A DNA stretch of 43,888 bases from an uncultured Flavobacteriaceae bacterium (GTDB lineage Bacteria; Bacteroidota; Bacteroidia; NS11-12g; UBA955): the NCBI GenBank assembly GCA_964431045.1, contig CAYSIK010000001.1:1-43888 (forward strand), given 5' to 3'. Of the stretch, positions 18,511 to 41,496 are shown one piece after another (positions within the stretch are counted from its first letter, which is position 1; the number at the start of each line of letters is the position of its first letter). The notes under the pieces are model-generated. The model saw only the letters and a list, made by a program, of their open reading frames with translations, did no database searches and was not told where the DNA came from. Both the position numbers and the translations under genes were made by a program.

Positions 18511-18532
18511 AACGCTTCTATACCTTAAAGTA

Positions 18533-18946
18533 TTATTTCAGCTGGGTACCGTTGCCGGCAGGACTTTCGGTAGATACGGTTCCGGTGATGGTGAGGTCAG
18601 TGCTTGCGCCGTTGTCGAAAGATACTTTCACGGACTTCTGGAAGAAACCGGGACGACCTTCGGTACCATAGCTTGCCTTTACTTCACCGGTTTTGCCGGG
18701 CATTACGGGCGTTTTGGTGTAGGTTGGTGTAGTACATCCACAGCTGGGGGCAGCAGCGGTGATAACCACAGGTGCTTTTCCGTTGTTGGTGAAAGTGAAC
18801 GTTACTTCAGCAGGAGGACCCATTTTCACAGTGCCGAAATCATGGGTGGTTTTGTTCCACTTGATGGTTTCATTCTGCTTAATACCTGCTACCAGCATGG
18901 CAGTGACAGCCATGGCAGCGAATCCGAGAGTAAAAATCTTTTTCAT
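18533..18946 (-). CDS. DUF1573 domain secreted protein (paralog 1 of 3)
   Basis: Trimmed to ATG 18946 (MKKIFTLGFAAMAVTAMLVAG), then FTFTNNGKAPVVITAAAPSCGCTTP. Confidence 0.78.
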   Translation of the reverse strand: MKKIFTLGFAAMAVTAMLVAGIKQNETIKWNKTTHDFGTVKMGPPAEVTFTFTNNGKAPVVITAAAPSCGCTTPTYTKTPVMPGKTGEVKASYGTEGRPGFFQKSVKVSFDNGASTDLTITGTVSTESPAGNGTQLK

Positions 18947-19126
18947 GGTTTTGTTGTTTTGCAAAAAGAATATCAACAACTGTACCAAAAAAATAACTGC
19001 TTCCCAGCCTGAAGAAAAAATGTTGGTCAAAACCCCTATTTGAATTGCGATAATCAGAAGAAATTTTCCAAAATATTCTGTTCAATAAAAACCCTCAAAA
19101 GGCTTATCATTTTTGGAAATATTAAT

Positions 19127-19145
19127 TATTGTACTTTTTACAATA
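19127..19145. promoter_or_regulatory. Candidate operator TATTGT-N7-ACAATA on the promoter of the NrtR-like regulator operon
   Basis: tattgt-acttttt-acaata. The right arm overlaps the first two bases of the -7 box at 19144-19151. The same palindrome with the same spacing occurs at 31346 and 31369. Confidence 0.55.
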
Positions 19146-19151
19146 TATTTG
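19144..19151 (+). promoter_or_regulatory. -7 box TATATTTG for the glycan-utilisation operon
   Basis: TAnnTTTG match 10 nt upstream of ATG 19162. Confidence 0.45.
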
Positions 19152-19161
19152 CTTCTGTCCC

Positions 19162-19857
19162 ATGAAAAATCTCAAGAAAATTCTCAAGCAATACTTCAAC
19201 GTTGCCGTTTCGGTAGATAACGTGGTGTTTGGTTTTGACGCCGACGGACTTAAGGTTCTCCTCATTTCCCGTGGTTCCGAGCCTTTCACCGGCTCCTGGG
19301 CCCTTCCCGGTGACCTGATTTCACCCGAAATGGACCTCGAATATTCTGCAGAGAAGATCCTGAAACAGCTTACCGGGCTGGATCAGGTGTACATGGAACA
19401 GATACAAACCTTTGGTAGCGTGGACCGTCACCCGTTCGGACGTGTGTTCACCATTGCCTATTTCGCCCTTATTAAGGTAGAGAATTACCACCCACAGGCC
19501 GCTTCATGGGCCAAGGATGTGGCGTGGTTCAAGGTTACTGAAATCCCAAAATTGCCTTTTGATCACCGCGAAATACTGGAATACGCGCGCCGTCTGCTGA
19601 AAAACCGCATCCGCACTCAGACGCTGGTGTTTGAGCTTTTGCCTAAATATTTTACCCTCACCGAACTGCAGTTTATTCATGAAAGTATCCTCGAAGAAGA
19701 ATTTGATGTAAGAAACTTCAGAAAAAAGATATTGTCTTCGGGTATCATCGAAGAGACCGGTAAAATGCAAAAAAATGTAACGCACCGTCCGGCTATGTTA
19801 TACCGATACAATGCAGCAAAGGCCAAGCAGCTTGGTTTTGAAGGAGGTATTCTGTAG
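19162..19857 (+). CDS. NrtR/AraR-type transcriptional regulator (degenerate NUDIX domain plus C-terminal winged helix)
   Basis: Trimmed to ATG 19162. The Nudix box reads GDLISPEMDLEYSAEKILKQLTGL, so RE-x-x-EE is replaced by EK-x-x-KQ and the domain is probably non-catalytic. The C-terminal FTLTELQFIHESIL...FDVRNFRKKILSSGII...RPAMLYRYN resembles the NrtR winged-helix domain. Confidence 0.72.
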   Translation: MKNLKKILKQYFNVAVSVDNVVFGFDADGLKVLLISRGSEPFTGSWALPGDLISPEMDLEYSAEKILKQLTGLDQVYMEQIQTFGSVDRHPFGRVFTIAYFALIKVENYHPQAASWAKDVAWFKVTEIPKLPFDHREILEYARRLLKNRIRTQTLVFELLPKYFTLTELQFIHESILEEEFDVRNFRKKILSSGIIEETGKMQKNVTHRPAMLYRYNAAKAKQLGFEGGIL

Positions 19858-21225
19858 TGAGAGTTCTCGCGGTCATATTCGTTTTTATGGCAGCGCAATT
19901 GCCTGTTGCAGCCCAGCCTGCAAAGATTTCGCTTATCCAAAAAAACGGACAATGGCAGCTGCTCAAGAATGGACAGCCCTATTACATAAAAGGCGCCGGA
20001 GGAACGGTACAGCTCGACCTTTTGGTTGAGTGCGGCGGTAATACCATCCGCACCTGGGGAATAGATGATGCGCAGCGCATTTTGGACGATGCTGGGAATG
20101 TGGGTGCAACACGAACGTCACGGCTTCGATTATGATAACAACCTGGCGGTTCAGAAACAGATACAGCATTTCAAATCGGCAGTGGACCGCTACAAAAACC
20201 ATCCCGCCCTACTGATGTGGGGCATAGGCAATGAGGTGGATTTGTTTTACAGCAATACCAAAGTTTGGCACAGTATTCAGGCTATTGCCAAGTATGTTCA
20301 CGATACCGATCCCAACCATCCTACATGCACCGTTACGGCCGGACTGGATTCACTGGAAGTTCAGCACATCCGCGAAAAAGCCCCCGATATTGATATATAC
20401 GGCGTAAATACCTATGGGGATATTGCCGGTGTGCCGAAAAATATTGGACGGTTTGGCTGGACAGGTCCCTACATGATAACCGAATGGGGCCCCAATGGGC
20501 ATTGGGAATCGCCGGTTACACCCTGGAACGCGGCAATCGAGCAATCCAGCCGCGAAAAAGCCGATGTGTACTGGGAGCGATATGTAAAATATATCATGGC
20601 TGACAGCCAGCACTGCATTGGTTCCTATGTGTTTTTATGGGGACAAAAACAGGAATATACCCTCACCTGGTATGGCTTGTTTACCAAAGATAACAAGCAA
20701 ACCGAGGCCGTGGATATGCTTTATGAACTTTGGAACAGAAAGAAACCGCCAATACCAACACCCACCTTACATAGCCATGGCCTGCTGATTTATTTAGGGG
20801 TGGGAAATGCCCAAAAGACGCTGTTGGGTGCGGCGTCCGACAACATTTTCCTGACCGCAGGCTCCTTAAATACGGCCATTGTGAAACCCAGACTGCTTAG
20901 GGCTTCGCAAGAAGAAAGCAGCAATCCCCGCAGCTATCGCATTGAATGGAAGTTGCTTGCGGAAAGTGACGATAAAAAAGCCGGAGGCGATATGGAAAAT
21001 GAAGCTTCCGAAATTGGCGGTTTTATCAAAAAAGCCAAAGATTTTGAATTGCAGTTCAAGGCACCACGGCAGCCCGGTGCCTATCGTTTGTTTGTAACCA
21101 TCCATTACAAAAACAAGGTCGCCTATGCCAATGTGCCTTTTATGGTTAAGGATGCGGCTTCAGATGAAGGTAGTAAAGCACTCAGGTTTAAAAGATACGA
21201 CTTACAAAGTTTTGACCAGCCATGA
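19857..21225 (+). pseudogene. Secreted clan GH-A (TIM-barrel, GH2-C/GH5-like) glycoside hydrolase split by a frameshift near 20090-20103
   Basis: The 92-aa ORF at 19857..20135 has a GTG start overlapping the regulator's TAG. It carries the signal peptide MRVLAVIFVFMAAQLPVAAQ and ends ...NTIRTWGIDDAQRILDDAG. The sequence continues in the +1 frame (ORF 20065..21225) as WVQHERHGFDY...LMWGIGNEVD...YMITEWGP, with NE as acid/base and TEWG as nucleophile. The two ORFs overlap by 71 nt. Confidence 0.55.
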
Positions 21226-23075
21226 TGAAGAAATACGCACATATTGTATGGACGATATGGCTGGCGACGGCCGTTATGGCAGCATCAGCCCAGGATACTA
21301 TAAAGCTCAGCGAAACACCGGGTGTACATCCCAAAGCGCCTATGCCATCCCTGGAACGCTTCCAGGTGTCTGGCTATTACAGATTTATCACCAATGTGCG
21401 CCAACTGCAGGAAGGGTATTCCGACCAGATGAAAACCCCACTGAACATTTTCGTGGGCGATGACAGCCAGATTCCGCAATTATTACTGAACATGGGCGGC
21501 AGTATATCCCCCAACACCCGGTTTTATACTGACTTTTATCTGTGGACACCCATGATGGGCGGTGGAATGGTCGAAAATGTGAAAGGACTTAACCTCGGCG
21601 TAAGCCTTACCGGTACCCATGATTTTGAAAAAGGCACCCTGCAGGTACAGACAGGTGGTATCAACTGGTATTCCCTCACGCCTTTCACCTTCTTTTCCAA
21701 CCCCGGCTTTAACCGTTTTACGGTATTTGAGCGCAACCCCTGGGACCCAATGACCCGCAATGCTATGGATCGGTATCAGACCTTTTACCAGACCGGAGCC
21801 ATGAACCAGGATACACGCTGGGGCAGACAGGCTTTTCAGGGTTTGATTATGGACCTAAGTAACCTTCCCAATGGTTTTTCAGGGGTGCTGATGTACGGCA
21901 AAACCCAGCTGAACGGAGGTATGACCCCATTGCCCAACCACAGCCTGGGCGGTAAAATCAAAAACGGGAACGAAAACCGCTACATCAGTGTCAATACTTT
22001 CAACAACCAAACCTATTCCGACTCCCTGCTGAGCAGCACACTGGGTTTTAATGTTCATACTGCAGAATTTGTGTGGAAAAAACAAGGCTGGAAAATCTAC
22101 GGTGAAACCGGTGCCGGACGCTATTACAGTAATTCATACAATAAGGGCTGGGGTGAAGCCATATCGTTGAAACTGGATATCCCACAGCGCGTATTGCGTG
22201 TACCCCTGCAAATCCACTACTTCCGCATCAGCCCCAAAGTGATCAACAACAGCAGTGTATTCTGGAATTCTGCCATTCAGGAAGGCAACAATACCGGGGC
22301 GCAAAGCGAAGCCCAGCTTGTGCTGGCCCCTTTTTCGAGTGCCATGGTGCCGGTGGGCCAGCTCACCAATAACCGCACAGGTATTGAGCTGAACTCAGAA
22401 ACCAAAGCCGGCCGCTTCCGCATCAATGCGGGATACACCATTGCCAAAGAACTGGAGCGCATTGCCTCACAAATCACCTATTCGCACCCGGTTAATAACC
22501 TGGCTCTGTCGCGTTTCTGGCGATGGTCTTTCCCTGCGGGAGTGGGGCCCTATAAAAACCTGACCAAGGTGTACCGCGGGGTATATGAGTCGGTGGATTT
22601 GAGGGATGTGGATGCACAACAAGTGCCATTGAACGATAAATATTTCAATACTGCTGAACTTCAGATTAAATACAAAACCCAACTGGGCGGAAAAGAGCTG
22701 TTCATAAACTATCTGGGAACCTATGCATCGGTACAGTCTTTTGCCTCACCATTTACCGTGTTTACCGAAAAAGCCTATCTCCGCACGTATTACCACCAGT
22801 TGGAATCTTACCTAAAACTGGCCAGAAACCTTGTGTGGTGCAATTACGCAGGCGCCGAAAGAATCATCGCCAATTACGATACCCGAACAGATGCCATTAG
22901 CCGAAGGCCTAAAAATCAGGAGGGATATGGCATTGCTACCGGTTTTGACATAGAAATGAGCAAGGGCGCAGGCCTCTATATACGTCAGAGAAAAATGTAT
23001 TATACAGACCGCAGCTTCAGTAAAGACAGGTACCGCGGATGGGAAACCACCGTAGAATTAAAAATATTCTTTTGA
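21222..23075 (+). CDS. Predicted outer-membrane beta-barrel protein (OMP-A of a paralogous pair), unknown family, not TonB-dependent
   Basis: Signal peptide MMKKYAHIVWTIWLATAVMAASAQ. Amphipathic alternating-residue stretches run throughout. The C-terminus GWETTVELKIFF has an aromatic end typical of a beta-signal. No plug domain or TonB box is visible. The ATGATG start overlaps the upstream TGA. Confidence 0.6.
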   Translation: MMKKYAHIVWTIWLATAVMAASAQDTIKLSETPGVHPKAPMPSLERFQVSGYYRFITNVRQLQEGYSDQMKTPLNIFVGDDSQIPQLLLNMGGSISPNTRFYTDFYLWTPMMGGGMVENVKGLNLGVSLTGTHDFEKGTLQVQTGGINWYSLTPFTFFSNPGFNRFTVFERNPWDPMTRNAMDRYQTFYQTGAMNQDTRWGRQAFQGLIMDLSNLPNGFSGVLMYGKTQLNGGMTPLPNHSLGGKIKNGNENRYISVNTFNNQTYSDSLLSSTLGFNVHTAEFVWKKQGWKIYGETGAGRYYSNSYNKGWGEAISLKLDIPQRVLRVPLQIHYFRISPKVINNSSVFWNSAIQEGNNTGAQSEAQLVLAPFSSAMVPVGQLTNNRTGIELNSETKAGRFRINAGYTIAKELERIASQITYSHPVNNLALSRFWRWSFPAGVGPYKNLTKVYRGVYESVDLRDVDAQQVPLNDKYFNTAELQIKYKTQLGGKELFINYLGTYASVQSFASPFTVFTEKAYLRTYYHQLESYLKLARNLVWCNYAGAERIIANYDTRTDAISRRPKNQEGYGIATGFDIEMSKGAGLYIRQRKMYYTDRSFSKDRYRGWETTVELKIFF

Positions 23076-24802
23076 TGAAAAAACAAGTAAAACATAGCAT
23101 TAAGTTTTTAGGCCTTCTTACAGCAGCCACTCCGCTGTGGCTTTCAGCCCAAAACACCCCTAAATTCAGTATGAAAGGCGGAGCACGTTCGGTTTTGGCC
23201 AACTCAGAATTGCAGGTAAAAGACAGTGTTCCCGATAAGGTTACCGCTCCTAAAAACGCCGGAGGATATGCCCTCATAGACCTGGGTTTCAATATCCGTC
23301 CTAACAAGAACACCGAAATTTTGGGCATGATCCGCATCAACAACCGCTTTGGCGGTTTCTGGGGTGCAGGGGTAACCTTTGATGTGCGTCAGCTTTGGCT
23401 GAAAGGCGTGATTGCCGATAAAATCCGTTACCAGCTGGGCGATATTAACCTGAAACAGACCCCGTTTACTTTCTGGAACCACGATGAGGACCGGTGCATG
23501 CAACAGCCTGCTGTATTTGACCTTCAGCGGGATATTGTAAATTACGAATCTTTTTATGTGCCCGGAACATGGCGTCAACAGGGTGCGGAGGCAGATTTTG
23601 GATTGGAATCCGTAAAACTCAAATCTGACTGGAATTTTCATGGATACCTTACCCGATTGAACGCCACCAACTTTGGCAGCCAGCCCGAACGCCTGCACAC
23701 AGGAGCAACCGCCAACTGGGTTTGGAACAAAAAAGCTACCCTGGCCTACAATATCAGCCGAATTTTTGATGTTAAGGAGACCGCCACACAACCACTGTTG
23801 TTTCAGAATACGGTGCAAACCTTGTCGTGGGAATGGAAGCAGGCCTTCGGAAAACAGCAGTTCACCCTCGGAGGTGAAGCCGGCAATTCATCCTACCGCA
23901 TCGTACACGATACAGCATCACCCCATCTGCAAGACTTTTTTGCTCATGGTTTTGTAAAAGTTGCACCCAATGGCAAACGCTGGGAGGCTGAAGCAGGTTA
24001 TATCAATGTGGGTCCCGATTTCAGAAGCATAGCGGCGCAATCTAAACGCATTGATTACAATGCACAACCCTTATTGTATAATCGCTATACCCAAATGCAA
24101 ATAGACCGCCCCCTGCACCTGCTGGATTTTATTGGTAATGCCAATCTTTACCGAAATGGAATCAGTACAAAGCTGATGGCCTACAATCCTCTGGTAAACA
24201 ATGTACTTCCTTACGGAATCGCGACCTTTAACCGGCAAGGTTTTTATGCAAAAGCGAAGTATAATATTGTAAAAAATACAATAACATTGGATGCACAACA
24301 CTGGCGCTTGTCTGAAATTTTGGGTCAGGGAACACCCGAACTCAAAAAGATGGATATGACCCGGCTCGATGTAAACTGTGATGCAGGCAAGTTGCTCGGA
24401 ATAAAAAAACAGGCTAAACTGCATGTGTCGGCATGTAACCAGAATACCCGGCGCAAGAGTCCGCGTGCCTACGAAGAGCTGGATTTAAACTCTCTGCAAT
24501 GGTCGGCCGGCATGGAAATGGAGGTAATGAAGGACATTGATGTGCTGGGCGGCTACACCTCCCTGCAAGGAAAAGGAAATGATCAGACGGCCGTGCGCAA
24601 TGAATACACCGAAGTGATTGATTTTGCAGGCTTTTCAGCCAATCAGCGACACAGCACAGCTGCCGCCGGACTCAGGGTGCGTTTTGGCGGTAAAACCTAT
24701 CTGGCACTCATGTATCAGCGTATGCAGTACCAAAACAAGGCCCAGGCATTCCGGGATTACAGCATCGGACAAATGCAGGCCATTTATAACATGACATTCT
24801 GA
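23075..24802 (+). CDS. Predicted outer-membrane beta-barrel protein (OMP-B, distant paralog of OMP-A)
   Basis: Trimmed to ATG 23075 (TGATG overlap), giving MKKQVKHSIKFLGLLTAATPLWLSAQ. The C-terminus is GQMQAIYNMTF. It shares with OMP-A an ordered set of motifs: I-x-PN, G-x-IN-x3-4-TPFTF and W-x-x-Q. Confidence 0.6.
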   Translation: MKKQVKHSIKFLGLLTAATPLWLSAQNTPKFSMKGGARSVLANSELQVKDSVPDKVTAPKNAGGYALIDLGFNIRPNKNTEILGMIRINNRFGGFWGAGVTFDVRQLWLKGVIADKIRYQLGDINLKQTPFTFWNHDEDRCMQQPAVFDLQRDIVNYESFYVPGTWRQQGAEADFGLESVKLKSDWNFHGYLTRLNATNFGSQPERLHTGATANWVWNKKATLAYNISRIFDVKETATQPLLFQNTVQTLSWEWKQAFGKQQFTLGGEAGNSSYRIVHDTASPHLQDFFAHGFVKVAPNGKRWEAEAGYINVGPDFRSIAAQSKRIDYNAQPLLYNRYTQMQIDRPLHLLDFIGNANLYRNGISTKLMAYNPLVNNVLPYGIATFNRQGFYAKAKYNIVKNTITLDAQHWRLSEILGQGTPELKKMDMTRLDVNCDAGKLLGIKKQAKLHVSACNQNTRRKSPRAYEELDLNSLQWSAGMEMEVMKDIDVLGGYTSLQGKGNDQTAVRNEYTEVIDFAGFSANQRHSTAAAGLRVRFGGKTYLALMYQRMQYQNKAQAFRDYSIGQMQAIYNMTF

Positions 24803-25806
24803 TGAAAATGAAAAATATAATTCGCATATTGCCCCTGCTATTCCTCATTGCTTCCTGTAAGCGCGACAATAAGCAATTTGAAGGCCCCAGCCTGGAAGAT
24901 CTAAACGGTCCGTTTGCAATGGTAAAACCTTTCACCGCGAGCAAAACAGCCGCTGATTTTTCAAAAGGAGAAACCATCACATTTGGTGCTGAATTTACCA
25001 AACAGTGCGACTGGACCATCACCATCTACGGCGATTTGAGCAAAGCGCGGAAAATTATCAGCGGCAAATCCAGAACAGTAGACGCCGGAAATGCTACCTG
25101 GGAAGGAACAACCACGGTATTGCCCGCCTTCCGAACAGAACCTTGCAAGGCAGTATTGAAAATTGCCGGGGTTACAGACAGCTTTAGCCTAAATCTGGGT
25201 GTCAACGGGGTGCGTGTGCCCAAAGGTCTTGTTATTGCTGACTTTGAAAGCGGCCTGAATATCAAATGGAATACATTTATTCAGTCCGGAGCCAATATGG
25301 ATTTCAAAGTAAAAACCGATGCTTTTTCCGTTCAGGGAAAGAATTACCTGAATATGGCCGGTACGGTTTCATGGGACTGGCTTATCGGACTGATTGATTT
25401 TCCCGCTTCAGCCTACGGCTCGCCCACGCTGGCCTTGAGCACCGTTCCGGAAGATGTGTATTTCAATTGCCTTATTTATGGCGATGCAACACCCAATCCA
25501 AGCAGGGTATTGTTTCAGTTCAAAGAAGATGATAACAACAACAAAACCTTTGATCCCAGTGCCGATGACCAGTTTGACAAGGAAATCATTGTAAACTGGC
25601 AGGGTTGGAAACTCGTTTCATTCAAATACAGCGATCTGATCCACCTCAGCAATGGGCAACCCGCTCCCAACAACGGAAACAACCGCCACAACCCAAACAG
25701 CATCGTTACCCTCTCTATGCTGCACCTGGCGAACCCCTCCATGGGTGCAGCCGGCACCAAAATTGACTACCTGATATTTACCGATAAGTCACCCTTGCAA
25801 TTGTGA
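24802..25806 (+). CDS. Surface lipoprotein, putative glycan-binding beta-sandwich (CBM-like)
   Basis: Lipobox LFLIASC. A mid/C-terminal VIADFESG...WN...NYLNMAGT...WQGWKLVSFKYSDL pattern resembles galactose-binding-like/CBM folds, but this is weak. The TGATG start overlaps the upstream stop. Confidence 0.5.
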   Translation: MKMKNIIRILPLLFLIASCKRDNKQFEGPSLEDLNGPFAMVKPFTASKTAADFSKGETITFGAEFTKQCDWTITIYGDLSKARKIISGKSRTVDAGNATWEGTTTVLPAFRTEPCKAVLKIAGVTDSFSLNLGVNGVRVPKGLVIADFESGLNIKWNTFIQSGANMDFKVKTDAFSVQGKNYLNMAGTVSWDWLIGLIDFPASAYGSPTLALSTVPEDVYFNCLIYGDATPNPSRVLFQFKEDDNNNKTFDPSADDQFDKEIIVNWQGWKLVSFKYSDLIHLSNGQPAPNNGNNRHNPNSIVTLSMLHLANPSMGAAGTKIDYLIFTDKSPLQL

Positions 25807-26495
25807 TGAACAGGATTACAGCAACACTAACCGTATTGCTTTTGTGGGGCTCGGCATGGGCTCAGGATTCTGCTGTGCGCAACATAGATACTGTTCATAT
25901 CAAAAATAGCGTGTTGCGTATGAAAAACCTGGGGCTGTACGACCGTTCCGAAACTTCTCCAACCCCTGAAATAGGCGGCTTTGGTGCCTTGCAGCTATTT
26001 GATGAGAATATGGGTTCTGAAATCTGGGTTTCCAAAGAACAGGCCTGTGTAACCGTAAACAAAGACAAAACAAATCCCTACAGCGGAGAATACTGTATGC
26101 GCGCCAAGTGGGATAAAATTGCCGGCGGCTGCAAATGGATTGGAATGGGATTTGGCTGGGACAACTGGCAACCCAAAGACTTGTCCGGTATAGTGGATTC
26201 TGCCTGCATTCAAATGCAGATCCGTTCGCAAACCGATACCCTCAAATCATTGCCGCTGGCCCTGGCGCTCGAAGATTATACAGGGGCGCAATGTTTTATC
26301 GGGTTTTCACCCAAATACCTGAATGGCAAGCGAATCATGCCCGGCAGCTGGACCCCTGTTACTATTCCTCTCTCAGACTTTCCCTTTGAACGTTTTCAGA
26401 CACAATCCGATATGATCAAACAATTTATTATTCAGTTTGAGGCTGACGGGGATGTCTATATTGACAATATCAAACTGGTTAGAAAAAGCAGGTAA
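25806..26495 (+). CDS. Secreted protein, putative carbohydrate-binding module (CBM11/CIA30-like beta-sandwich)
   Basis: Signal peptide MNRITATLTVLLLWGSAWAQ. The C-terminal WTPVTIPLSDF...IKQFIIQFEADGDVYIDNIKLV is typical of CBM beta-sandwich ends. The function call is tentative. Confidence 0.45.
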   Translation: MNRITATLTVLLLWGSAWAQDSAVRNIDTVHIKNSVLRMKNLGLYDRSETSPTPEIGGFGALQLFDENMGSEIWVSKEQACVTVNKDKTNPYSGEYCMRAKWDKIAGGCKWIGMGFGWDNWQPKDLSGIVDSACIQMQIRSQTDTLKSLPLALALEDYTGAQCFIGFSPKYLNGKRIMPGSWTPVTIPLSDFPFERFQTQSDMIKQFIIQFEADGDVYIDNIKLVRKSR

Positions 26496-26500
26496 GCTAT

Positions 26501-28735
26501 ATGAAAAAAGGCTTTAAAATACTTTTATCGATTTGTGTTTTTGTGTTTTTTAATACAATAAGTGCACAGAATAGCCGTGATGCAGCGGTAGAAAACCGCA
26601 TAAAGGCAATGACTTTGGAAGAAAAAGTAGGCCAAATGTCGCAGATTGACCTGGGTGTGCTGGCCGTGGGAAAGATTTGTGAGGTCTCCGACCCGATACG
26701 ACTTGACACTGCCAAACTCCGCCTGGCTTTTCAGCGCTACAAAGTGGGTTCCGTGCTCAACTGTGGTTGCGGTTTTCATGCCCTCAGCCGCAAACGCTGG
26801 CTGGAACTCATTGACAGCATTCAGCAGGCAAACAGCCTTTACACAAAACACAGCATCCCTGTATTGTATGGCATAGATGCCATTCACGGTGCCAATTATA
26901 CCCTGGGCTCAACCCTGTTTCCCCAGCAAATTGGGCAGGCTGCGACATGGAATCCTGAACTGGTAAAAGCTGCAGCACAAATTACTGCCTACGAAACACG
27001 TGCCTCAGGCATACCCTGGAACTTTTCGCCGGTGCTGGATATTGGCCGGCAACCCCTGTGGTCAAGGTTTTTCGAGACCTATGGCGAAGATGTGTGTCTG
27101 GCCAAAAGGATGACGAATGCCTGTATTTCGGGTTATCAGGGCAACACCTTCGGAAATGAACAGGTGGCGGCATGTATGAAGCATTTCCTGGGCTACAGCT
27201 ATCCGCTGAGTGGCAAGGACCGCACCCCCGTTTGGATTGGTGAACGGGAACTGAGGGCCTATTTTCTGCCCACATTTCAGGAAGCCATCCGGCTGAAAGC
27301 CAAAACCCTGATGATTAACTCCGGAGAGCTAAATGGTGTGCCTGTTCATGCCAGCTATCCCATTCTCACAACCCTGCTTAGAGAAGAACTGGGCTTTGAA
27401 GGCGTGGCGGTTACCGATTGGGAAGATGTATACAAACTGCATACCACCCACAAAGTAGCCGAAACACTGAGAGATGCCGTGAAAATGGCCGTGATGGCGG
27501 GTATCGATATGAGCATGACTCCCAATGATTTTCAGTTTAATGAACTGTTAGTGGATCTGGTAAAATCGGGTGAAATTCCGGAAAGCCGCCTGGATATGTC
27601 GGTGCGGCGCATACTGAAACTGAAATCAGATTTAGGCCTTGAAGGAAATGTAAGCTTGCCTTCACTGGCCGATTATCCGTTGTTTGGCTCAGACAGCTTT
27701 GCCCATGTGGCCAATGATGCCGTTGCTGAATCGATAACCCTGCTGAAAAATGAGGGAGATGTATTGCCCCTGTCACCCGGATCCAAAGTATGGTTGATGG
27801 GAAATGCTGCCAACAACCTCAACTACCTGAATGGAGCCTGGTCACAAACCTGGCTGGGACAGGACACAAGGTTCAATGAATCGGGTAAATTGACCATTCT
27901 GCAGGCTTTGCAAGCCGGTTATGGCAAGGATCAAATTACGGAGGTAACGCCTCAATACGTGATGCAGAACCAACGTAAATCAAAACGCCTGCCCGGCGCG
28001 GTAGTTTATTGCCTTGGAGAAACGCCTGCCACGGAAATCCCCGGAAACATTAATGATTTGGCCATTACCATCCCGGATGAAGACCGCAAGGCGCTGGAAT
28101 TATTAAAGGCCCGAAAAGTACCTGTAGTGCTGGTATTGCTTTTGGCAAGGCCGCGCATCATAACCGATCTGGATAAACTGAGCCGAGCCGTGGTACATGC
28201 CTACATCCCCGGTCAGGAGGGAGCAAAGCCGCTGGCGGACTTATTGTATGGCAAAATCAATCCTTCAGGCCGTTTGCCCTTTACCTACCCGCGTTCTTCT
28301 GGAGATATTGTACACTATGACCGTAAACGCACTGAAGACAATGATATCAATTTCGGAAGCAGTGCCTACAATCCGCTGTATGATTTTGGCCACGGCCTTT
28401 CCTATACCCGTTTTGATTACTGGGGCATGAGCGTCAAGCCTGAGAATGACACATTTGTTATTCAGGTTCTTGTAAGAAATACAGGAAATCGCGAGGGCAA
28501 GGAAGTTGTGCAGGTATACTACCGCGATGAATACGCACCGATTACCCCCTCCCAGAAAAAACTATGCGCATTTAGCAAGGTAAATCTTAAGCCCGGGCAG
28601 GATGCTGCTGTTACCCTTAAAGTTCCCTTCTCCGATGTGGGAGACATTGGCGCTGATATGAAACCCTTTAAAGCATCCGGTACCATTGTTTTCCGTGCCG
28701 GACAACAAACCGTAACCCTTAACCACAAACCCTGA
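26501..28735 (+). CDS. Glycoside hydrolase family 3 beta-glucosidase (BglX-like), secreted
   Basis: 744 aa with a signal peptide. MTLEEKVGQM, GIDAIHGAN, KHFLGY and the nucleophile region GFEGVAVTDWED are present, with a C-terminal Fn3-like tail. Confidence 0.9.
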   Translation: MKKGFKILLSICVFVFFNTISAQNSRDAAVENRIKAMTLEEKVGQMSQIDLGVLAVGKICEVSDPIRLDTAKLRLAFQRYKVGSVLNCGCGFHALSRKRWLELIDSIQQANSLYTKHSIPVLYGIDAIHGANYTLGSTLFPQQIGQAATWNPELVKAAAQITAYETRASGIPWNFSPVLDIGRQPLWSRFFETYGEDVCLAKRMTNACISGYQGNTFGNEQVAACMKHFLGYSYPLSGKDRTPVWIGERELRAYFLPTFQEAIRLKAKTLMINSGELNGVPVHASYPILTTLLREELGFEGVAVTDWEDVYKLHTTHKVAETLRDAVKMAVMAGIDMSMTPNDFQFNELLVDLVKSGEIPESRLDMSVRRILKLKSDLGLEGNVSLPSLADYPLFGSDSFAHVANDAVAESITLLKNEGDVLPLSPGSKVWLMGNAANNLNYLNGAWSQTWLGQDTRFNESGKLTILQALQAGYGKDQITEVTPQYVMQNQRKSKRLPGAVVYCLGETPATEIPGNINDLAITIPDEDRKALELLKARKVPVVLVLLLARPRIITDLDKLSRAVVHAYIPGQEGAKPLADLLYGKINPSGRLPFTYPRSSGDIVHYDRKRTEDNDINFGSSAYNPLYDFGHGLSYTRFDYWGMSVKPENDTFVIQVLVRNTGNREGKEVVQVYYRDEYAPITPSQKKLCAFSKVNLKPGQDAAVTLKVPFSDVGDIGADMKPFKASGTIVFRAGQQTVTLNHKP

Positions 28736-29580
28736 TGACCAGAATATTTTACATCATTCCTGCATTGGCAGTGCTGTTGCTTTCGCCGATATACTCCTGT
28801 AAGCAATCCGATCCACCCGACAATAAGAACAGGGTAATCCGCGATTCAGGCGATCTGGTATTTTCCGGCTATGGCTGGAATATCAAATCCAGCACCGGTC
28901 CTGTCGGCCCCGGCCCCAACTACTTTAATGGCAGCGACAGCATGGTGTGGGTGGACAGTAAGGGATATCTGCACCTGCGCATTGCCAAAATTAACGGCAA
29001 GTGGCAAAGCAGTGAGGTTATCTGCACTGAGACTTCAGGCTACGGAACGTATGTGTTTTGCCTGGAAAGTGATGTCGCCACCTTTAATGAACGTGTGGTA
29101 CTGGGCTTGTTTACCTGGGATGACAATTCATTCAAAGAACAGGCCAATAGTGAAGTAGACATCGAGTTTTCCAAGTGGTTTAAGGCCGGCGACAGCTCCA
29201 CCCTTACCTATTCGGTTCAGCCGGTCATTTTCGACAATCCCATTGCCTACAGCGAACGTTCATTTAAGCCTGTGATGCAGGTGAGCAAACTGAAACAGCC
29301 AAGTACCCATTTGTTCAACTGGCGAGCTGACCAAATAACCTGGAACTCCTACACAGGTTCGGTGTATCCAGGTGGCAGTCCACTGGCATCCTGGAGTTTT
29401 AATTTAAACAACCCTGTAAGAACCAAGATAGAGGGGGGGAATTCTTCCAACCCCATTATAATCCCGGCGCCCGGCGCAACTACCCATGCACGCATGAATT
29501 TGTGGCTGCTAAACGGACTTCCTCCTACTGATGGAAAGCCCGTAGAGGTGGTAGTAAGGTCGTTTGAGTATATTCCCTAA
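28735..29580 (+). CDS. Glycoside hydrolase family 16 (lichenase/laminarinase-type) lipoprotein
   Basis: Lipobox SPIYSC. The catalytic strand SEVDIEF matches the ExDxE (EIDIEF) lichenase motif. The flanking SGYGTYVF, HLFNWRADQITW and HARMNLWLLNG parallel the order of Bacillus lichenase blocks. Confidence 0.75.
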   Translation: MTRIFYIIPALAVLLLSPIYSCKQSDPPDNKNRVIRDSGDLVFSGYGWNIKSSTGPVGPGPNYFNGSDSMVWVDSKGYLHLRIAKINGKWQSSEVICTETSGYGTYVFCLESDVATFNERVVLGLFTWDDNSFKEQANSEVDIEFSKWFKAGDSSTLTYSVQPVIFDNPIAYSERSFKPVMQVSKLKQPSTHLFNWRADQITWNSYTGSVYPGGSPLASWSFNLNNPVRTKIEGGNSSNPIIIPAPGATTHARMNLWLLNGLPPTDGKPVEVVVRSFEYIP

Positions 29581-29590
29581 AAACAAAAAA

Positions 29591-29607
29591 GGAGGCACAA
29601 GGCCTCC
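29591..29607. terminator. Bidirectional terminator hairpin between the convergent GH16 and T9SS genes
   Basis: ggaggc-acaag-gcctcc, flanked by an A-rich run upstream (aaacaaaaaa, 29581-29590) and ctcttt downstream. Confidence 0.55.
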
Positions 29608-29631
29608 CTCTTTGTATATCAAACCAAATGA

Positions 29632-31299
29632 TTATTTGCTGTTGATGAAGATGCGCTCCTGATAGCTGCCTTCTGTGGTATTGATAACCATCAGATACAT
29701 GCCGGATTTGGCGCTGTTAAGATTGATTTCGGTGTTGATGGCTTTGCCGGTGAAACCTCTGCTGTAAATCTTCTGTCCTACTACATCAAAAATTTCAATG
29801 TTTCCTGAGGTCAGATTGCTGAATGAAGCGGAAACGTTGAAGCGTCCGTTACCGGGATTTGGGAATACTTTCACACCATTGGCGGTAATGCCTGAATTGC
29901 CCAACGTAGCGCAGCTAACACATTTTTCCCAGCACACAGCAGGCAGGGTTGTATCTGCTTTCACAACACCCATGCGGTTGGTAAACTGACCGGTTGTTTT
30001 GGTGCAGCTTTCACCACCTGTGAATGTTTCCTTGGCAGTCCATCCGTCTACAGTAAAGAGATATTCGAATGTATCGGTAGCGTTCAGGGGCAAGGTGATT
30101 TCATAGACCTTGTCGTTATCCGCATCGGTCATGGGATTGCAGGCACCGCACCAGCCATTGAAGGATCCGTTGATGTTCACGGCAGTGTAAGAACCTGTGT
30201 ATTTGCTCATATCTACCTTGAAAGTAACGTTTGCTTTTTCTTTGGTGTTGGCACAGCTTACGCAAGATTCAAAGCACACAGCATCAAGAACGGTGTTGCC
30301 CGTAATTTTCATAAAACGGTTGGTGTAACCTGCGGTAGTTTTGGTGCAGGATGAACCTTCCTTCATCATTTCCTTTACTGTCCAGCCATCGAGGGTAAAC
30401 AGAAACTCAATAGAATCCTGGGGCAATGGTAATTTCACTTCCCAGATACCGTCTTTGTCGGCATCGGCCATTGGATTGCAGTTTCCGCACCAGCCGTTGA
30501 AGCTGCCGTTTACAAATACACCGGTAAATGCAGCGCCTTTGTATTTGGCCATGTCTACCTTGAAAGTAACATCGTTGGTACACTCGCTGCAGCTTGCCCA
30601 GCAAACATTTGCCAGCACTTTAGAACCTGAAACTTTCAGGAAACGGTTGGTGTAGCCGCCGGTAGTTTTGGTGCACGAACTGCCTGAAGTTAGTTTTTCA
30701 TCGTCCTTCCAGTTGTCTACCTGAAATTTGTATTCAATGGAATCCTGTGTGATGTCGAAGGTACCGCTGAAAATTTTGTCACCGTCTGCATCTGTAAGCT
30801 GATTGCTATTGCCGGACCAGCTGTTGAAGTTGCCGGAAACATATACGTTGGTGTAAGAACCGCTGTATTGCTTCATGTTTACGTTGAAAGTAACCGATTT
30901 TTTGGTTACGGAAGAACAAGCTGCACAGCTTTCGAAACAAACCTTGCTTAAGGTAGTGTTGCCGGTAAGCTTTACAAAACGGTTGGTGTAGCCTGAAGTG
31001 GTTTTTGTGCAGGAGCTTCCGGGTGTAAGGGCTTCCTGTTTTGACCAGTTGTCCATGGTGAACTTGTACTCAATAGAGTCATCATTGATGTCGAAGGTGC
31101 CTTCCCACACGCCGTCAGCGTTAGCATCAGACAGCGCATTTCCGTTGCCGGACCAGCTGTTGAAAGTACCACTCACGTATACGGTCGTGAATGAGCCACC
31201 GGCGTAGTTGTTCATGTCAACCTGAAAAGTAACTTTCTTTTGAGCCCACAGGCCTGTCAAGAAAGCGCTCAGGAATAAAGCGGTAATGATTTTTTTCAT
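29632..31299 (-). CDS. T9SS-secreted protein with four tandem Cys-rich CBM-like modules
   Basis: Signal peptide MKKIITALFLSAFLTGLWAQ. Four modules of ~110 aa read VTFxVDM..Y...V.VSGxFNxW.G..N...DADxD..(W/F)...(F/L)......EYKF..D.W...E.....SCTKTT.GYTNRF.......L..VC(F/W)..C..C. The C-terminus VFPNPGNGRFNV...GMYLMVINT...IFINSK is a Por CTD. Confidence 0.78.
   Translation of the reverse strand: MKKIITALFLSAFLTGLWAQKKVTFQVDMNNYAGGSFTTVYVSGTFNSWSGNGNALSDANADGVWEGTFDINDDSIEYKFTMDNWSKQEALTPGSSCTKTTSGYTNRFVKLTGNTTLSKVCFESCAACSSVTKKSVTFNVNMKQYSGSYTNVYVSGNFNSWSGNSNQLTDADGDKIFSGTFDITQDSIEYKFQVDNWKDDEKLTSGSSCTKTTGGYTNRFLKVSGSKVLANVCWASCSECTNDVTFKVDMAKYKGAAFTGVFVNGSFNGWCGNCNPMADADKDGIWEVKLPLPQDSIEFLFTLDGWTVKEMMKEGSSCTKTTAGYTNRFMKITGNTVLDAVCFESCVSCANTKEKANVTFKVDMSKYTGSYTAVNINGSFNGWCGACNPMTDADNDKVYEITLPLNATDTFEYLFTVDGWTAKETFTGGESCTKTTGQFTNRMGVVKADTTLPAVCWEKCVSCATLGNSGITANGVKVFPNPGNGRFNVSASFSNLTSGNIEIFDVVGQKIYSRGFTGKAINTEINLNSAKSGMYLMVINTTEGSYQERIFINSK
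29905..31233 (-). repeat. Four in-frame tandem repeats (324-342 bp each) encoding the CBM-like modules
   Basis: Module boundaries are aa 23-135, 136-243, 244-357 and 358-465. DNA-level similarity is visible, e.g. ggtgtagcctgaagtggtttttgtgcagga, ggtgtagccgccggtagttttggtgcacga and ggtgtaacctgcggtagttttggtgcagga. Confidence 0.8.
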
Positions 31300-31323
31300 G
31301 TTCGTTAAAGTTTAATTCACAAA

Positions 31324-31331
31324 CAAAGGTA
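31324..31331 (-). promoter_or_regulatory. -7 box TACCTTTG (minus strand) for the T9SS CBM-repeat gene
   Basis: The plus strand reads caaaggta, 24 nt upstream of ATG 31299. Confidence 0.45.
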
Positions 31332-31345
31332 GAAAAAACCAATCA

Positions 31346-31364
31346 TATTGTAAAAAAAACAATA
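31346..31364. promoter_or_regulatory. Candidate operator TATTGT-N7-ACAATA (copy 1 upstream of the T9SS CBM-repeat gene)
   Basis: tattgt-aaaaaaa-acaata, 14 nt upstream of the -7 box, which places it in the -33 region. Confidence 0.55.
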
Positions 31365-31368
31365 AGAT

Positions 31369-31387
31369 TATTGTTAAAAGTACAATA
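31369..31387. promoter_or_regulatory. Candidate operator TATTGT-N7-ACAATA (copy 2 upstream of the T9SS CBM-repeat gene)
   Basis: tattgt-taaaagt-acaata, 23 bp start-to-start from copy 1. Confidence 0.55.
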
Positions 31388-31533
31388 AGTGAGCTTTTAA
31401 AAATGCTATTTCATTTTTTATATCATTGATTTTCAAATACTTAATAATTTTAATCTATAATTTTAGCTGAAAGTAAAAAGTCGGGAAAACCTCCTTGTGG
31501 AAGTTATTTTTAACATAATTCATACAAAAAGAA

Positions 31534-41417: not shown

Positions 41418-41480
41418 ACGGCAAATTTCGGGTATTTATGACGTATTGGCGCATTTAATACAGATGCTTTTACAAATTCG

Positions 41481-41488
41481 TATTTTTG
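41481..41488 (+). promoter_or_regulatory. -7 box TATTTTTG for the GH3-family ligase gene
   Basis: TAnnTTTG match 8 nt upstream of ATG 41497. Confidence 0.45.
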
Positions 41489-41496
41489 CCACAACA

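What the first reader, a model, noticed from the sequence alone, without database searches (positions are those of the whole stretch)
19127..31387. SusC/SusD-less beta-glucan utilisation locus led by an NrtR/AraR-type regulator
Eight plus-strand genes run without a gap larger than 5 nt. In order they are: a NUDIX-like regulator, a clan GH-A hydrolase, two non-TonB beta-barrel OMPs, a CBM-like lipoprotein, a CBM-like secreted protein, GH3 and GH16. Every product except the regulator has a signal peptide or lipobox. A convergent T9SS gene with four CBM-like modules carries the same candidate operator as the operon promoter. Canonical Bacteroidota polysaccharide utilisation loci are defined by a SusC (TonB-dependent) and SusD pair. 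Here the positions normally held by SusC/D are taken by two related barrels of about 600 aa with no plug or TonB box. The GH3 plus lichenase-type GH16 content points to beta-1,3 or beta-1,3-1,4 glucan. If the barrels are the import route, this would be a passive-porin architecture rather than the known Sus paradigm. Regulation by a NUDIX-fold repressor is so far established in this phylum only for pentose utilisation (Bacteroides thetaiotaomicron AraR).
Basis: partly seen in the sequence, partly recalled or inferred. Interest (0 to 1): 0.78.

Follow-up and report, generated by a model that had tools for sequence, protein, structure and literature searches.

The report
Laminarin locus with Cytophaga-type barrel pair
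This freshwater Bacteroidota gene cluster for digesting beta-1,3-glucan (algal laminarin) lacks the usual SusC/SusD importer and instead carries a two-barrel-plus-lipoprotein outer-membrane module that is homologous to the one needed for cellulose use in Cytophaga hutchinsonii, which suggests that module is a widespread, substrate-swappable alternative to SusC/D.

Summary
The observation largely holds. An AraR/NrtR-type regulator gene is followed by seven tightly packed genes for exported proteins, and a 21-bp palindrome (TTATTGTA-N5-TACAATAA) is shared with the convergent T9SS gene.

Three corrections:
- The "clan GH-A hydrolase" is a GH158 beta-1,3-glucanase. In this window it is broken by a 26-bp frameshifting deletion.
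- The "GH16" is only a distant GH16-like protein. It has an invariant ExDxE motif but no Pfam hit.
- The two barrels are not detectably related to each other.

The architecture is not unprecedented. [quoted passage not shown] These belong to the chu_1276-1280 "atypical PUL", which genetics shows is required for cellulose use.

What appears new is the scope. The laminarin version is invariant in gene order across 80 freshwater MAG loci (197 species genomes hit). More distant copies of the same module sit in front of GH9, GH3, or GH97/GH13/GH31 with a SusR-like regulator. Control by an AraR-type regulator is also new for this module.

Import through the barrels is still an inference. I rate this a new variant of a known kind, of moderate to high interest.

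The parts
19126..19146 (.). 21-bp palindromic operator O1 (TTATTGTACTTTTTACAATAT). It overlaps a TAnnTTTG-like -7 box just upstream of the regulator's ATG.
   Evidence: The same site is conserved upstream of nrtR in L005-L020 and L066.
19162..19857 (+). [quoted passage not shown] The ORF opens at TTG 19129, but the likely start is ATG 19162.
   Evidence: Pfam NrtR_WHD 3e-25, AraR_C 4e-12, NUDIX 1e-7. PDB BtAraR 5bs6 E = 6e-49. The Nudix box is degenerate by inspection.
19857..21225 (+). GH158 beta-1,3-glucanase gene with a signal peptide. It is disrupted by a 26-bp deletion between 20086 and 20087, leaving fragments 19857-20135 and 20065-21225 in different frames.
   Evidence: The intact ortholog in L005 matches PDB 9oro GH158(Pro) at E = 4.7e-96 and 6pal at 2.5e-67.
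21222..23075 (+). OMP-A, a 617-aa plug-less beta-barrel homologous to C. hutchinsonii CHU_1276.
   Evidence: AF2 pLDDT 78, pTM 0.77. Foldseek gives only generic barrels with TM <= 0.40. BLASTP to CHU_1276 E = 1e-56. No Pfam hit.
23075..24802 (+). OMP-B, a 575-aa plug-less beta-barrel of about 22 strands, homologous to CHU_1277.
   Evidence: AF2 pLDDT 84. Foldseek generic only. hhalign to CHU_1277 prob 100, E = 5e-72. tblastn E = 6e-61.
24264..24284 (.). Operator-like palindrome inside the OMP-B coding sequence. Its function is unknown.
   Evidence: Conserved with 1-2 mismatches in L005, L006 and L007.
24802..25806 (+). Lipoprotein of 334 aa with an invariant lipobox Cys. It is homologous to CHU_1278, which is reported to have a bimodular beta-sandwich (SGBP-like) fold.
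   Evidence: Alignment A5. hhalign to CHU_1278 prob 99.6, E = 6e-24. No PDB sequence hit.
25803..26495 (+). Secreted CBM30/SGBP-B-like beta-sandwich protein of 230 aa with an SPI signal and two invariant Cys.
   Evidence: Pfam SGBP_B_XBD 2.5e-6. Its profile hits CBM30 structures 2c24 and 1wmx at E = 0.016. No significant match to CHU_1279.
26501..28735 (+). GH3 exo-beta-glucosidase with a signal peptide.
   Evidence: Pfam Glyco_hydro_3 2e-66, Glyco_hydro_3_C 2e-33, Fn3-like. The best NCBIfam match is exo-beta-1,3/1,6-glucosidase at 3e-113, below the curated cut-off.
28735..29580 (+). Distant GH16-like lipoprotein with an invariant E140-x-D142-x-E144 motif.
   Evidence: Alignment A4. Its profile matches Bacillus 1,3-1,4-beta-glucanase 1byh/1mac at E = 5e-4, aligning EVDIEF to EIDIEF. 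No Pfam hit.
29632..31299 (-). T9SS-secreted protein with four CBM48-like modules and a Por_Secre_tail domain. It belongs to the same regulon.
   Evidence: A relative is adjacent in 33 of 52 related loci.
31345..31388 (.). Two tandem 21-bp operators (31345-31365 and 31368-31388), 2 bp apart, upstream of the T9SS gene.
   Evidence: BtAraR operators show the same tandem layout, 3 bp apart (PMC4666351).

Best explanation
This is a beta-1,3-glucan (laminarin or chrysolaminarin) utilisation operon. Its outer-membrane part is a homolog of the Cytophaga hutchinsonii CHU_1276/CHU_1277/CHU_1278 module rather than SusC/SusD.

Proposed working (inferred unless marked otherwise):
1. The T9SS-anchored multi-CBM protein and the lipoproteins (the CHU_1278-like protein and the GH16-like endoglucanase) capture and nick the glucan at the cell surface.
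2. Oligosaccharides cross the outer membrane through a complex built from the two plug-less barrels OMP-A and OMP-B, with no TonB coupling.
3. In the periplasm, GH158 and GH3 reduce them to laminaribiose and glucose. Both carry SPI signals. The closest characterised GH158 is endo-processive and releases laminaribiose.
4. An MFS transporter encoded elsewhere takes the sugars into the cytoplasm.

Transcription is repressed by an AraR-type Nudix-fold regulator. It binds 21-bp palindromes that overlap the promoters of the operon and of the T9SS gene, and an unknown sugar releases it.

Shown here: the homologies, the strict synteny, the operator conservation, and the absence of a plug and of SusC/D.
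Shown elsewhere by genetics: the Cytophaga homologs are required for glycan use.
Inferred: that the barrels are the channel, the protein localisations, and the effector.

In this particular genome the GH158 gene carries a frameshifting deletion.
For: Homology to the Cytophaga module:
- OMP-A vs CHU_1276: E = 1e-56, 27% identity over nearly full length.
- OMP-B profile vs CHU_1277: prob 100, E = 5e-72.
- Lipoprotein profile vs CHU_1278: prob 99.6, E = 6e-24.
- tblastn confirms all three.
- The C. hutchinsonii locus L085 reads 743/606/380/375 aa followed by GH9. This is chu_1276-1280; the 375-aa CHU_1279 matches the length given in PMC12016534.

Published genetics: chu_1276, chu_1277, chu_1279 and chu_1280 are needed for cellulose use, and chu_1276 and chu_1279 mutants are impaired on low glucose (PMC12016534; PMC5891637).

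Synteny across related loci:
- GH158 lies directly upstream in 65 of 65 loci with enough flank.
- OMP-B, the lipoprotein and the CBM protein follow in 52 of 52.
- GH16-like is present in 50 of 52 and GH3 in 44 of 52.
- OMP-A identity across these loci ranges from 47 to 93%.

Module swapping: the same three-gene core precedes GH9 (L085, L091), GH3 (L086, L087, L090), or GH97+GH13 (L088, L092, L093), with GH31 in L092 and L093 and a SusR-like regulator in L092. It therefore occupies the SusC/D slot of otherwise Sus-like loci.

Enzymes: GH158 (activity from PMC13195107), GH3, GH16-like.

Barrels: AF2 models, no plug, C-terminal Phe.

Regulator and operator.

An MFS transporter gene is adjacent in 21 related loci.
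Against: - There is no transport, localisation or expression data for any member of the laminarin version.
- The Cytophaga genetics shows requirement, not channel function. The mutants there also show altered surface enzyme activity or gene expression, which a scaffold or signalling role would equally explain.
- A barrel of about 22 strands without a plug would need an occluding element. I could not model the complex.
- The CBM-like protein has no significant similarity to CHU_1279.
- The GH16 assignment is weak.
- The CBM48-like modules usually bind alpha-glucans.
- GH158 is disrupted in this window, so this copy may be impaired, or the sequence may carry an assembly error.
- No inner-membrane transporter lies in the window.
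- A TonB-dependent receptor sits 250 bp beyond the T9SS gene. However, it has no operator and is syntenic only in close relatives.
Confidence: 0.68

Rival explanations
1. The two barrels and the lipoprotein are not the import route. They are an outer-membrane scaffold, assembly factor or sensor that positions or stabilises the surface enzymes and binding proteins. Uptake itself goes through general porins or an unlinked TonB-dependent transporter.
For: [quoted passage not shown] Many conserved residues in OMP-A lie outside the predicted strands, some in segments modelled with low confidence (residues 109-125, and 151-207 at moderate to low confidence). That pattern is compatible with protein-protein interfaces. 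A TBDT gene lies nearby in the window.
Against: The module takes the position of SusC/D in loci that otherwise look like Sus, with GH97, GH13-CTD, GH31 and SusR. No SusC-like gene was found within 10 kb in distant loci. Mutants of chu_1276 are reported as impaired in use of low glucose. The nearby TBDT has no operator and is not conserved with the cassette.
Confidence: 0.22
2. One reading: a previously unknown passive-porin PUL architecture made of two paralogous porins.
For: No plug, no TonB box, no SusC/D. Foldseek hits include chitoporins, ScrY and AlgE.
Against: The architecture is already described as the chu_1276-1280 atypical PUL (PMC12016534), and homology to it is strong. The two barrels are not demonstrably paralogs. 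TM-scores to specific porins are at most 0.47 even when normalised to the smaller target. The predicted strand number is well above the 14-18 strands of known sugar porins.
Confidence: 0.08
3. In this genome the locus is a decaying remnant, because its first enzyme gene is a pseudogene.
For: A 26-bp out-of-frame deletion separates the signal peptide from the catalytic domain of GH158. The CBM ortholog in L013 also carries an in-frame stop.
Against: All other seven genes and all operators are intact. Relatives at 90% identity have an intact GH158. The GH16-like and GH3 enzymes could still process laminarin. A single indel in a metagenome assembly may be an error or a minor variant.
Confidence: 0.15
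4. The cassette exports a polysaccharide, with the barrels acting like AlgE or BcsC, rather than importing one.
For: AlgE appears among the Foldseek hits for OMP-B.
Against: TM-scores are at most 0.34 when normalised to the query. There is no glycosyltransferase, polymerase or Wzx/Wzy gene in the cassette in any of the 80 loci. Every partner is a hydrolase or a binding protein. The Cytophaga homologs are needed for catabolism.
Confidence: 0.02

Closest known systems
Cytophaga hutchinsonii chu_1276-chu_1280 "atypical PUL" (Zhou 2016; Ji 2014; Wang 2019; Zhang 2025, PMC12016534)
   Same: The gene order is the same: CHU_1276-like barrel, CHU_1277-like barrel, CHU_1278-like lipoprotein, a further beta-sandwich binding protein, then glycoside hydrolase(s). 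Homology of the first three is significant. Neither locus has SusC/D. Some related laminarin loci even have an ECF sigma gene directly upstream, echoing the ECF control reported in Cytophaga.
   Different: The enzymes are GH158, GH3 and GH16-like (soluble beta-1,3-glucan) rather than GH9 (crystalline cellulose). The fourth protein is a single CBM30-like domain with no detectable similarity to CHU_1279. OMP-A is about 125 aa shorter than CHU_1276. Regulation is by an AraR/NrtR-type repressor with a conserved palindrome. The carriers are planktonic freshwater MAG lineages rather than soil cellulolytic gliders. The published work reports the cluster only in C. aurantiaca and Sporocytophaga.
Bacteroides beta(1,3)-glucan utilisation loci (GH158, GH16, GH3, SusC/D, SGBP-B; Dejean et al. 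2020, PMC7157763)
   Same: The CAZyme families are the same (GH158, GH16-type, GH3), SGBP-B-like binding proteins are present, and the inferred substrate is the same.
   Different: There is no SusC/SusD pair. GH158 has an SPI signal here, whereas from memory BuGH158 is a surface lipoprotein. The GH16 is very divergent. The regulator is AraR-type, whereas from memory the Bacteroides 1,3GULs use a hybrid two-component sensor.
BtAraR/BtXylR branch of the NrtR family (Chang et al. 2015, PMC4666351)
   Same: Degenerate Nudix domain plus a winged-helix domain (E = 6e-49 to 5bs6). Operators are 21-bp (semi)palindromes, including a tandem pair 2-3 bp apart. The regulator gene is linked to a sugar-utilisation operon.
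   Different: The controlled genes are for a beta-glucan (hexose polymer), not for pentoses. The operator sequence and the effector are unknown or different.
Sugar-specific porins (LamB, ScrY, chitoporin ChiP, CymA) and TonB-dependent transporters
   Same: Outer-membrane beta-barrels linked to glycan catabolism. The barrel size is close to the 22 strands of TBDTs. The best Foldseek TMq is 0.40, to ZnuD.
   Different: No sequence or specific structural membership (TM <= 0.47). There are no plug domain and no TonB box, so they are not TBDTs. They are much larger than the 14-18-strand sugar porins. Two different barrels always occur together with a lipoprotein.

Membership tests
CHU_1276-1280-type atypical PUL | CHU_1276-like outer-membrane barrel | tested here: met
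   BLASTP of OMP-A vs P0521 (C. hutchinsonii) gives E = 1e-56 over residues 83-617. tblastn gives E = 2e-53.
CHU_1276-1280-type atypical PUL | CHU_1277-like barrel encoded immediately downstream | tested here: met
   hhalign prob 100, E = 5e-72 over 542 columns. The genes are adjacent in the window and in L085-L093.
CHU_1276-1280-type atypical PUL | CHU_1278-like beta-sandwich protein as the third gene | tested here: met
   hhalign prob 99.6, E = 6e-24 over 324 columns.
CHU_1276-1280-type atypical PUL | CHU_1279-like SGBP-B-like protein as the fourth gene | tested here: inconclusive
   No significant similarity (hhalign E = 0.017; no tblastn hit). However, the window protein hits Pfam SGBP_B_XBD (2.5e-6, 28.2 bits against a cut-off of 26.4) and, weakly, CBM30.
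CHU_1276-1280-type atypical PUL | Co-directional glycoside hydrolase gene(s) and no SusC/SusD in the locus | tested here: met
   GH158, GH3 and GH16-like are present. No SusC or SusD family was found among the window ORFs.
CHU_1276-1280-type atypical PUL | Genes required for, and induced by, the cognate glycan | not testable with these tools
   This needs genetics or expression data in a carrier organism.
Canonical Sus-like PUL | Adjacent SusC-like TonB-dependent transporter and SusD-like lipoprotein | tested here: not met
   Neither barrel has a Plug or TonB_dep_Rec hit, and no SusD hit is found anywhere in the window. The neighbouring TBDT is paired with DUF4249, lacks the operator, and is not conserved with the cassette.
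NrtR/AraR family regulator | Nudix-like N-terminal domain with an impaired Nudix box, plus a C-terminal NrtR winged helix | tested here: met
   Pfam NUDIX 1e-7, NrtR_WHD 3e-25, AraR_C 4e-12. BtAraR E = 6e-49. The Nudix box reads GDLISPE-x7-EKILKQLTG by inspection, so the catalytic Glu residues are lost.
NrtR/AraR family regulator | A 21-bp palindromic operator in front of the target genes, conserved across genomes | tested here: met
   Four sites against 0.09 expected. The site is conserved upstream of nrtR, GH158 or the T9SS gene in more than 30 loci, including loci without nrtR in the flank. Physical binding was not tested.
GH158 | Full-length similarity to characterised GH158 enzymes with both catalytic Glu motifs | tested here: met
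   The L005 ortholog matches 9oro at E = 4.7e-96 and 6pal at 2.5e-67. The GNEVD and ITEWG motifs are present in the window's second fragment by inspection. The window copy is frameshifted.
GH16 | Match to GH16 models, and the ExDxE catalytic motif on a beta-jelly roll | tested here: inconclusive
   No Pfam GH16 hit at E <= 0.01. A profile of 33 orthologs hits lichenases 1byh and 1mac at E = 5e-4 with the catalytic motifs aligned, and E140, D142 and E144 are invariant. The fold was not modelled.
Sugar-specific porins (LamB/ScrY/ChiP) | Sequence or close structural similarity to a 14-18-strand specific channel | tested here: not met
   No PDB sequence hits. Foldseek TM <= 0.47, and the matches are generic barrels.

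The most novel reading that the evidence does not exclude
The CHU_1276/CHU_1277/CHU_1278 module would be a second general, TonB-independent outer-membrane glycan-uptake machine of Bacteroidota. It would be interchangeable with SusC/D and combined by evolution with enzyme sets for cellulose, beta-1,3-glucan, alpha-glucan and other glycans. It would also be the main laminarin uptake route in abundant freshwater lineages. The family has 311 clusters at 50% identity, and 197 species genomes carry the laminarin type alone.
Probability: 0.45. Interest if true: 0.85.

Novelty: new variant of a known kind. Interest (0 to 1): 0.62.

Why it matters
PUL prediction in Bacteroidota is anchored on SusC/SusD pairs, so loci like this one are invisible to it. 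The Cytophaga cluster has been treated as a peculiarity of a few cellulolytic gliders.

This work shows three things:
- The same three-protein outer-membrane core is conserved in strict synteny with laminarin enzymes in about 200 freshwater species genomes.
- More distant copies of the core sit in front of GH9, GH3, or a SusR/GH13/GH97/GH31 starch-type set.
- Together these make a general, testable hypothesis of a SusC/D-independent uptake system.

This has practical consequences. Algal-glucan turnover in lakes could be re-annotated. The long-unresolved Cytophaga mechanism gains many natural variants and soluble substrates to work with. The known range of AraR-type Nudix regulators would extend from pentoses to a beta-glucan regulon.

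Tried and rejected
- Pfam and NCBIfam scans of both barrels, singly and for all alignment members, gave only sub-threshold generic barrel hits such as OMP_b-brl, OmpA_membrane and DUF2490.
- PDB sequence searches for the barrels and the lipoprotein found nothing.
- Foldseek of both AF2 models against the PDB returned only generic barrels with TM <= 0.47, so they belong to no characterised structural family.
- BLASTP and hhalign, including relaxed settings, did not show that OMP-A and OMP-B are paralogs. They found only three weak collinear segments, with E between 0.025 and 0.3.
- The lipoprotein and CBM profiles are not related to each other.
- The listing of cluster members on distant representatives returned no organism names. 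The Cytophaga link came instead from a profile of distant representatives.
- The original CHU_1276, CHU_1277 and ECF papers (PMC4784033, PMC4148786, PMC6384103) are not held. Their content is therefore cited only as reported in PMC12016534.
- The neighbouring TBDT+DUF4249 pair was considered as a hidden importer and rejected: it has no operator and is syntenic only in close relatives.
- Polysaccharide export was considered and rejected because no synthase genes are present.
- I could not model the multi-protein complex, obtain coordinates for pore analysis, or scan whole genomes for SusC/D genes carrying the operator.

Full report
**1. What is in the sequence**

Between 19129 and 29580 the + strand carries eight back-to-back reading frames. 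Their junctions overlap by 1-4 nt or are 5 nt apart. A convergent gene lies at 29632-31299.

Pfam confirms the following:
- The regulator has NrtR_WHD (3e-25), AraR_C and NUDIX domains.
- The GH3 is strong (2e-66, 2e-33, plus an Fn3-like domain).
- The convergent protein has four CBM48-like modules and a Por_Secre_tail domain.

By inspection of the translations, all seven non-regulator products and the T9SS protein begin with a signal peptide or a lipobox (LIASC in the 334-aa protein, IYSC in the 281-aa protein).

The second gene is not intact. The frame that starts with a signal peptide at 19857 ends at 20135, and the catalytic part is read from 20065 in another frame. Alignment with three relatives of about 90% identity shows a 26-bp deletion in the window between 20086 and 20087. 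This is either a pseudogene or an assembly error.

**2. The enzymes**

- The "clan GH-A hydrolase" is GH158. The intact ortholog from L005 matches PDB 9oro, "GH158(Pro)", at E = 4.7e-96, and BuGH158 (6pal) at 2.5e-67. GH158(Pro) is an endo-processive beta-1,3(/1,4)-glucanase that releases mainly laminaribiose (PMC13195107).
- The last gene has no Pfam or NCBIfam hit. A profile of 33 orthologs reaches Bacillus 1,3-1,4-beta-glucanases at E = 5e-4 and aligns EVDIEF with EIDIEF. E140, D142, E144 and the lipobox Cys are invariant. I call it GH16-like, not GH16.
- GH158, GH3 and a GH16-type enzyme form the same family set as in the Bacteroides beta(1,3)-glucan loci (PMC7157763, listed). The substrate assignment to beta-1,3-glucan is therefore well supported.

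**3. The regulator and its operator**

The regulator's closest solved relative is B. thetaiotaomicron AraR (5bs6, E = 6e-49). Its Nudix box is degenerate by inspection.

The pattern TTATTGTN7ACAATA, allowing one mismatch, occurs 9 times counting both strands, against 0.09 expected. These matches correspond to four palindromes:
- 19126-19146, overlapping a TAnnTTTG-like -7 element 16 nt before the regulator's ATG.
- A tandem pair at 31345-31365 and 31368-31388, upstream of the T9SS gene.
- One inside OMP-B at 24264-24284.

BtAraR sites are also 21-bp semipalindromes, with a tandem pair 3 bp apart before araMPRDAB (PMC4666351).

Across the related loci the motif recurs at the equivalent promoters: upstream of nrtR, between nrtR and GH158, upstream of GH158, and upstream of the T9SS gene. 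This includes loci whose flanks hold no nrtR (L021-L025). That is good comparative evidence for a regulon. Binding and the effector remain untested.

**4. The two barrels**

Neither protein has a Pfam, NCBIfam or PDB sequence match. Scanning all 61 and 58 alignment members found only sub-threshold generic barrel families.

AF2 models built from these alignments are confident: pLDDT 78 and pTM 0.77 for OMP-A, pLDDT 84 and pTM 0.79 for OMP-B. Both show large barrels, about 22 strands in OMP-B and 22-26 in OMP-A. The first strand begins roughly 20 residues after the signal peptide, so there is no plug domain. Both end in Phe.

Foldseek against the PDB returns only generic barrels (TBDT barrels, chitoporins, MOMP, AlgE, ushers, LptD) with TM <= 0.47.

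The two proteins are not demonstrably related to each other. BLASTP gives E >= 0.07, and profile-profile comparison gives E = 0.095. Three weak collinear segments are all that appears.

**5. Conservation**

OMP-A has 472 relatives in the 90%-clustered collection, and OMP-B has 695. None carries an annotation.

A scan of species-representative genomes found 197 genomes with a relative of OMP-A. The 80 loci kept are all MAGs, almost all labelled as Bacteroidota; judging by their record titles they come from lakes, reservoirs and rivers.

| Flank condition | Gene | Loci with gene |
|---|---|---|
| >= 2.6 kb upstream | GH158 directly upstream | 65 of 65 |
| >= 2.6 kb upstream | nrtR homolog anywhere in the locus | 32 of 65 (25 upstream on the same strand) |
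| >= 7 kb downstream | OMP-B, lipoprotein, CBM protein, in that order | 52 of 52 |
| >= 7 kb downstream | GH16-like | 50 of 52 |
| >= 7 kb downstream | GH3 | 44 of 52 |
| >= 7 kb downstream | T9SS CBM48-like protein | 33 of 52 |

OMP-A identity across these loci ranges from 47 to 93%. An MFS transporter gene is adjacent in 21 loci, and an ECF sigma gene lies directly upstream of GH158 in 6.

The TBDT+DUF4249 pair next to the window's cassette is syntenic only in the closest relatives and has no operator.

**6. The key comparison**

A literature search led to the C. hutchinsonii chu_1276-chu_1280 "atypical PUL". It comprises two outer-membrane proteins (CHU_1276, CHU_1277), two beta-sandwich SGBP-like proteins (CHU_1278, CHU_1279) and a GH9 endoglucanase. 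An ECF sigma factor controls the expression of chu_1276. The cluster is required for cellulose use, whereas the organism's SusC/D homologs are not required (PMC12016534; PMC5891637).

To test homology I took three steps:
1. I searched 1.84 billion representatives with the OMP-A profile. This found 311 clusters at E <= 1e-3 and 125 at E <= 1e-30.
2. I built a profile from the distant full-length members.
3. I searched the annotated collection with that profile. It retrieved a 743-aa protein of C. hutchinsonii ATCC 33406.

The locus of that protein reads 743, 606, 380 and 375 aa followed by GH9. This is chu_1276-1280.

| Window protein | Cytophaga protein | Result |
|---|---|---|
| OMP-A | CHU_1276 | E = 1e-56 |
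| OMP-B (profile) | CHU_1277 | prob 100, E = 5e-72 |
| Lipoprotein (profile) | CHU_1278 | prob 99.6, E = 6e-24 |
| CBM-like protein (profile) | CHU_1279 | not significant, E = 0.017 |

tblastn confirms the first three and finds no hit for the fourth. The window's outer-membrane module is therefore a diverged homolog of the Cytophaga one.

**7. The module is combined with different enzyme sets**

Eight further loci carry distant family members. All show the same four-gene layout. tblastn confirmed homology of the first three genes in the five of them it covered (L086-L090); L091-L093 rest on gene order and sizes. The downstream genes differ:

| Loci | Downstream genes |
|---|---|
| L091 | GH9, with an ECF sigma gene upstream |
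| L086 (Cytophagaceae bacterium ABcell3), L087, L090 | GH3 |
| L088, L092, L093 | GH97 + T9SS-tagged GH13 alpha-amylase (GH31 in L092 and L093; a SusR-like regulator in L092) |
| L089 | no glycoside hydrolase |

The alpha-glucan versions look like a Sus locus in which SusC/D has been replaced by this module. That is the strongest contextual argument that the module does the job of SusC/D.

Only five papers in the searchable library mention CHU_1276, and all concern C. hutchinsonii. The 2025 paper reports the cluster only in two close relatives. The wide distribution and the laminarin and starch versions therefore appear undescribed, within the limits of that library.

**8. Mechanism**

- Shown: the homologies, the synteny, the lack of a plug and of SusC/D, and the conserved operator.
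- Known from Cytophaga genetics: the module is required for glycan use, and chu_1276 and chu_1279 mutants grow poorly on low glucose.
- Inferred: glucan is captured and nicked at the surface, oligosaccharides pass through an OMP-A/OMP-B/lipoprotein complex without TonB, GH158 and GH3 trim them in the periplasm, an MFS transporter imports the products, and an AraR-type repressor is released by a sugar.

The main rival is a scaffold or assembly role for the barrels. A plug-less barrel of about 22 strands must be occluded somehow. Conserved non-strand segments (OMP-A 109-125, 151-207 and 337-384; OMP-B 124-168 and 313-386) or a partner protein could do this, but I could not model the complex.

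**9. Verdict**

The locus is indeed SusC/D-less, acts on beta-glucan, and is controlled by an AraR-type regulator. However, the architecture belongs to a known, poorly understood kind. I classify it as a new variant of a known kind. Its value lies in generalising that kind.

Noticed in passing
window 20086-20087 (gene 19857-21225): A 26-bp deletion relative to L005, L006 and L007 frameshifts the GH158 gene. It separates the signal peptide from the catalytic domain. This is either a pseudogene or an assembly error.
   Followed up: yes
window 24264-24284; L005 13043; L009 9197; L010 8908: Operator-like palindromes lie inside coding sequence. In the window and its closest relatives the site is within OMP-B. 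In L009 and L010 a perfect site lies at the very start of GH3. These could be internal operators or promoters, or chance.
   Followed up: partly
window 31534-35075 (-): A TonB-dependent receptor (879 aa, CarbopepD_reg_2 + Plug) is paired with a DUF4249 protein directly beyond the T9SS gene. It has no operator and is syntenic only in the closest relatives, so it is probably unrelated to the cassette.
   Followed up: yes
L003 7644, L039 7554, L082 4604 (ECF sigma genes at L003 7764-8507 and L082 4734-5444): In some related loci an ECF-type sigma factor gene sits directly upstream of GH158 and is itself preceded by the AraR-type palindrome. This suggests a repressor-to-sigma cascade and echoes the ECF control of chu_1276 in Cytophaga.
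   Followed up: partly
L088, L092, L093 (genes at 9001 to about 14700 and flanks): Distant copies of the barrel-barrel-lipoprotein module are embedded in alpha-glucan loci with GH97 and T9SS-tagged GH13 (GH31 in L092 and L093, and a SusR-like regulator in L092). This is effectively a starch utilisation locus without SusC/D.
   Followed up: partly
L021-L025, L034, L051: A subclade of the laminarin cassette lacks GH3. In L021-L025 there is no nrtR in the flank, yet a perfect operator is kept about 130 bp upstream of GH158, which implies regulation in trans.
   Followed up: partly
window 29632-31299 (-): The co-regulated T9SS protein consists of four modules that score as CBM48/AMPK glycogen-binding/CBM53. 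Those families usually bind alpha-glucans, which is odd for a beta-glucan regulon. The ligand specificity is unknown.
   Followed up: no
L013 8470-9105: The ortholog of the CBM-like protein contains an in-frame stop codon. This is another possibly damaged or mis-assembled copy of a cassette gene.
   Followed up: no
window 18082-19030 (-): Two tandem paralogous DUF1573 (Ig-like) secreted proteins are divergent from the regulator gene. At least the copy at 18533-19030 is syntenic in the close relatives L005-L012; the other was not tested.
   Followed up: no
window 41395-43047 (+): A protein matches Pfam "GH3 family" (PF03321, auxin-responsive GH3-like adenylating enzymes). This is not a glycoside hydrolase, so the name is a trap for automated CAZyme calls. 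It is followed by a SIS-domain, glucokinase-regulator-like protein.
   Followed up: no
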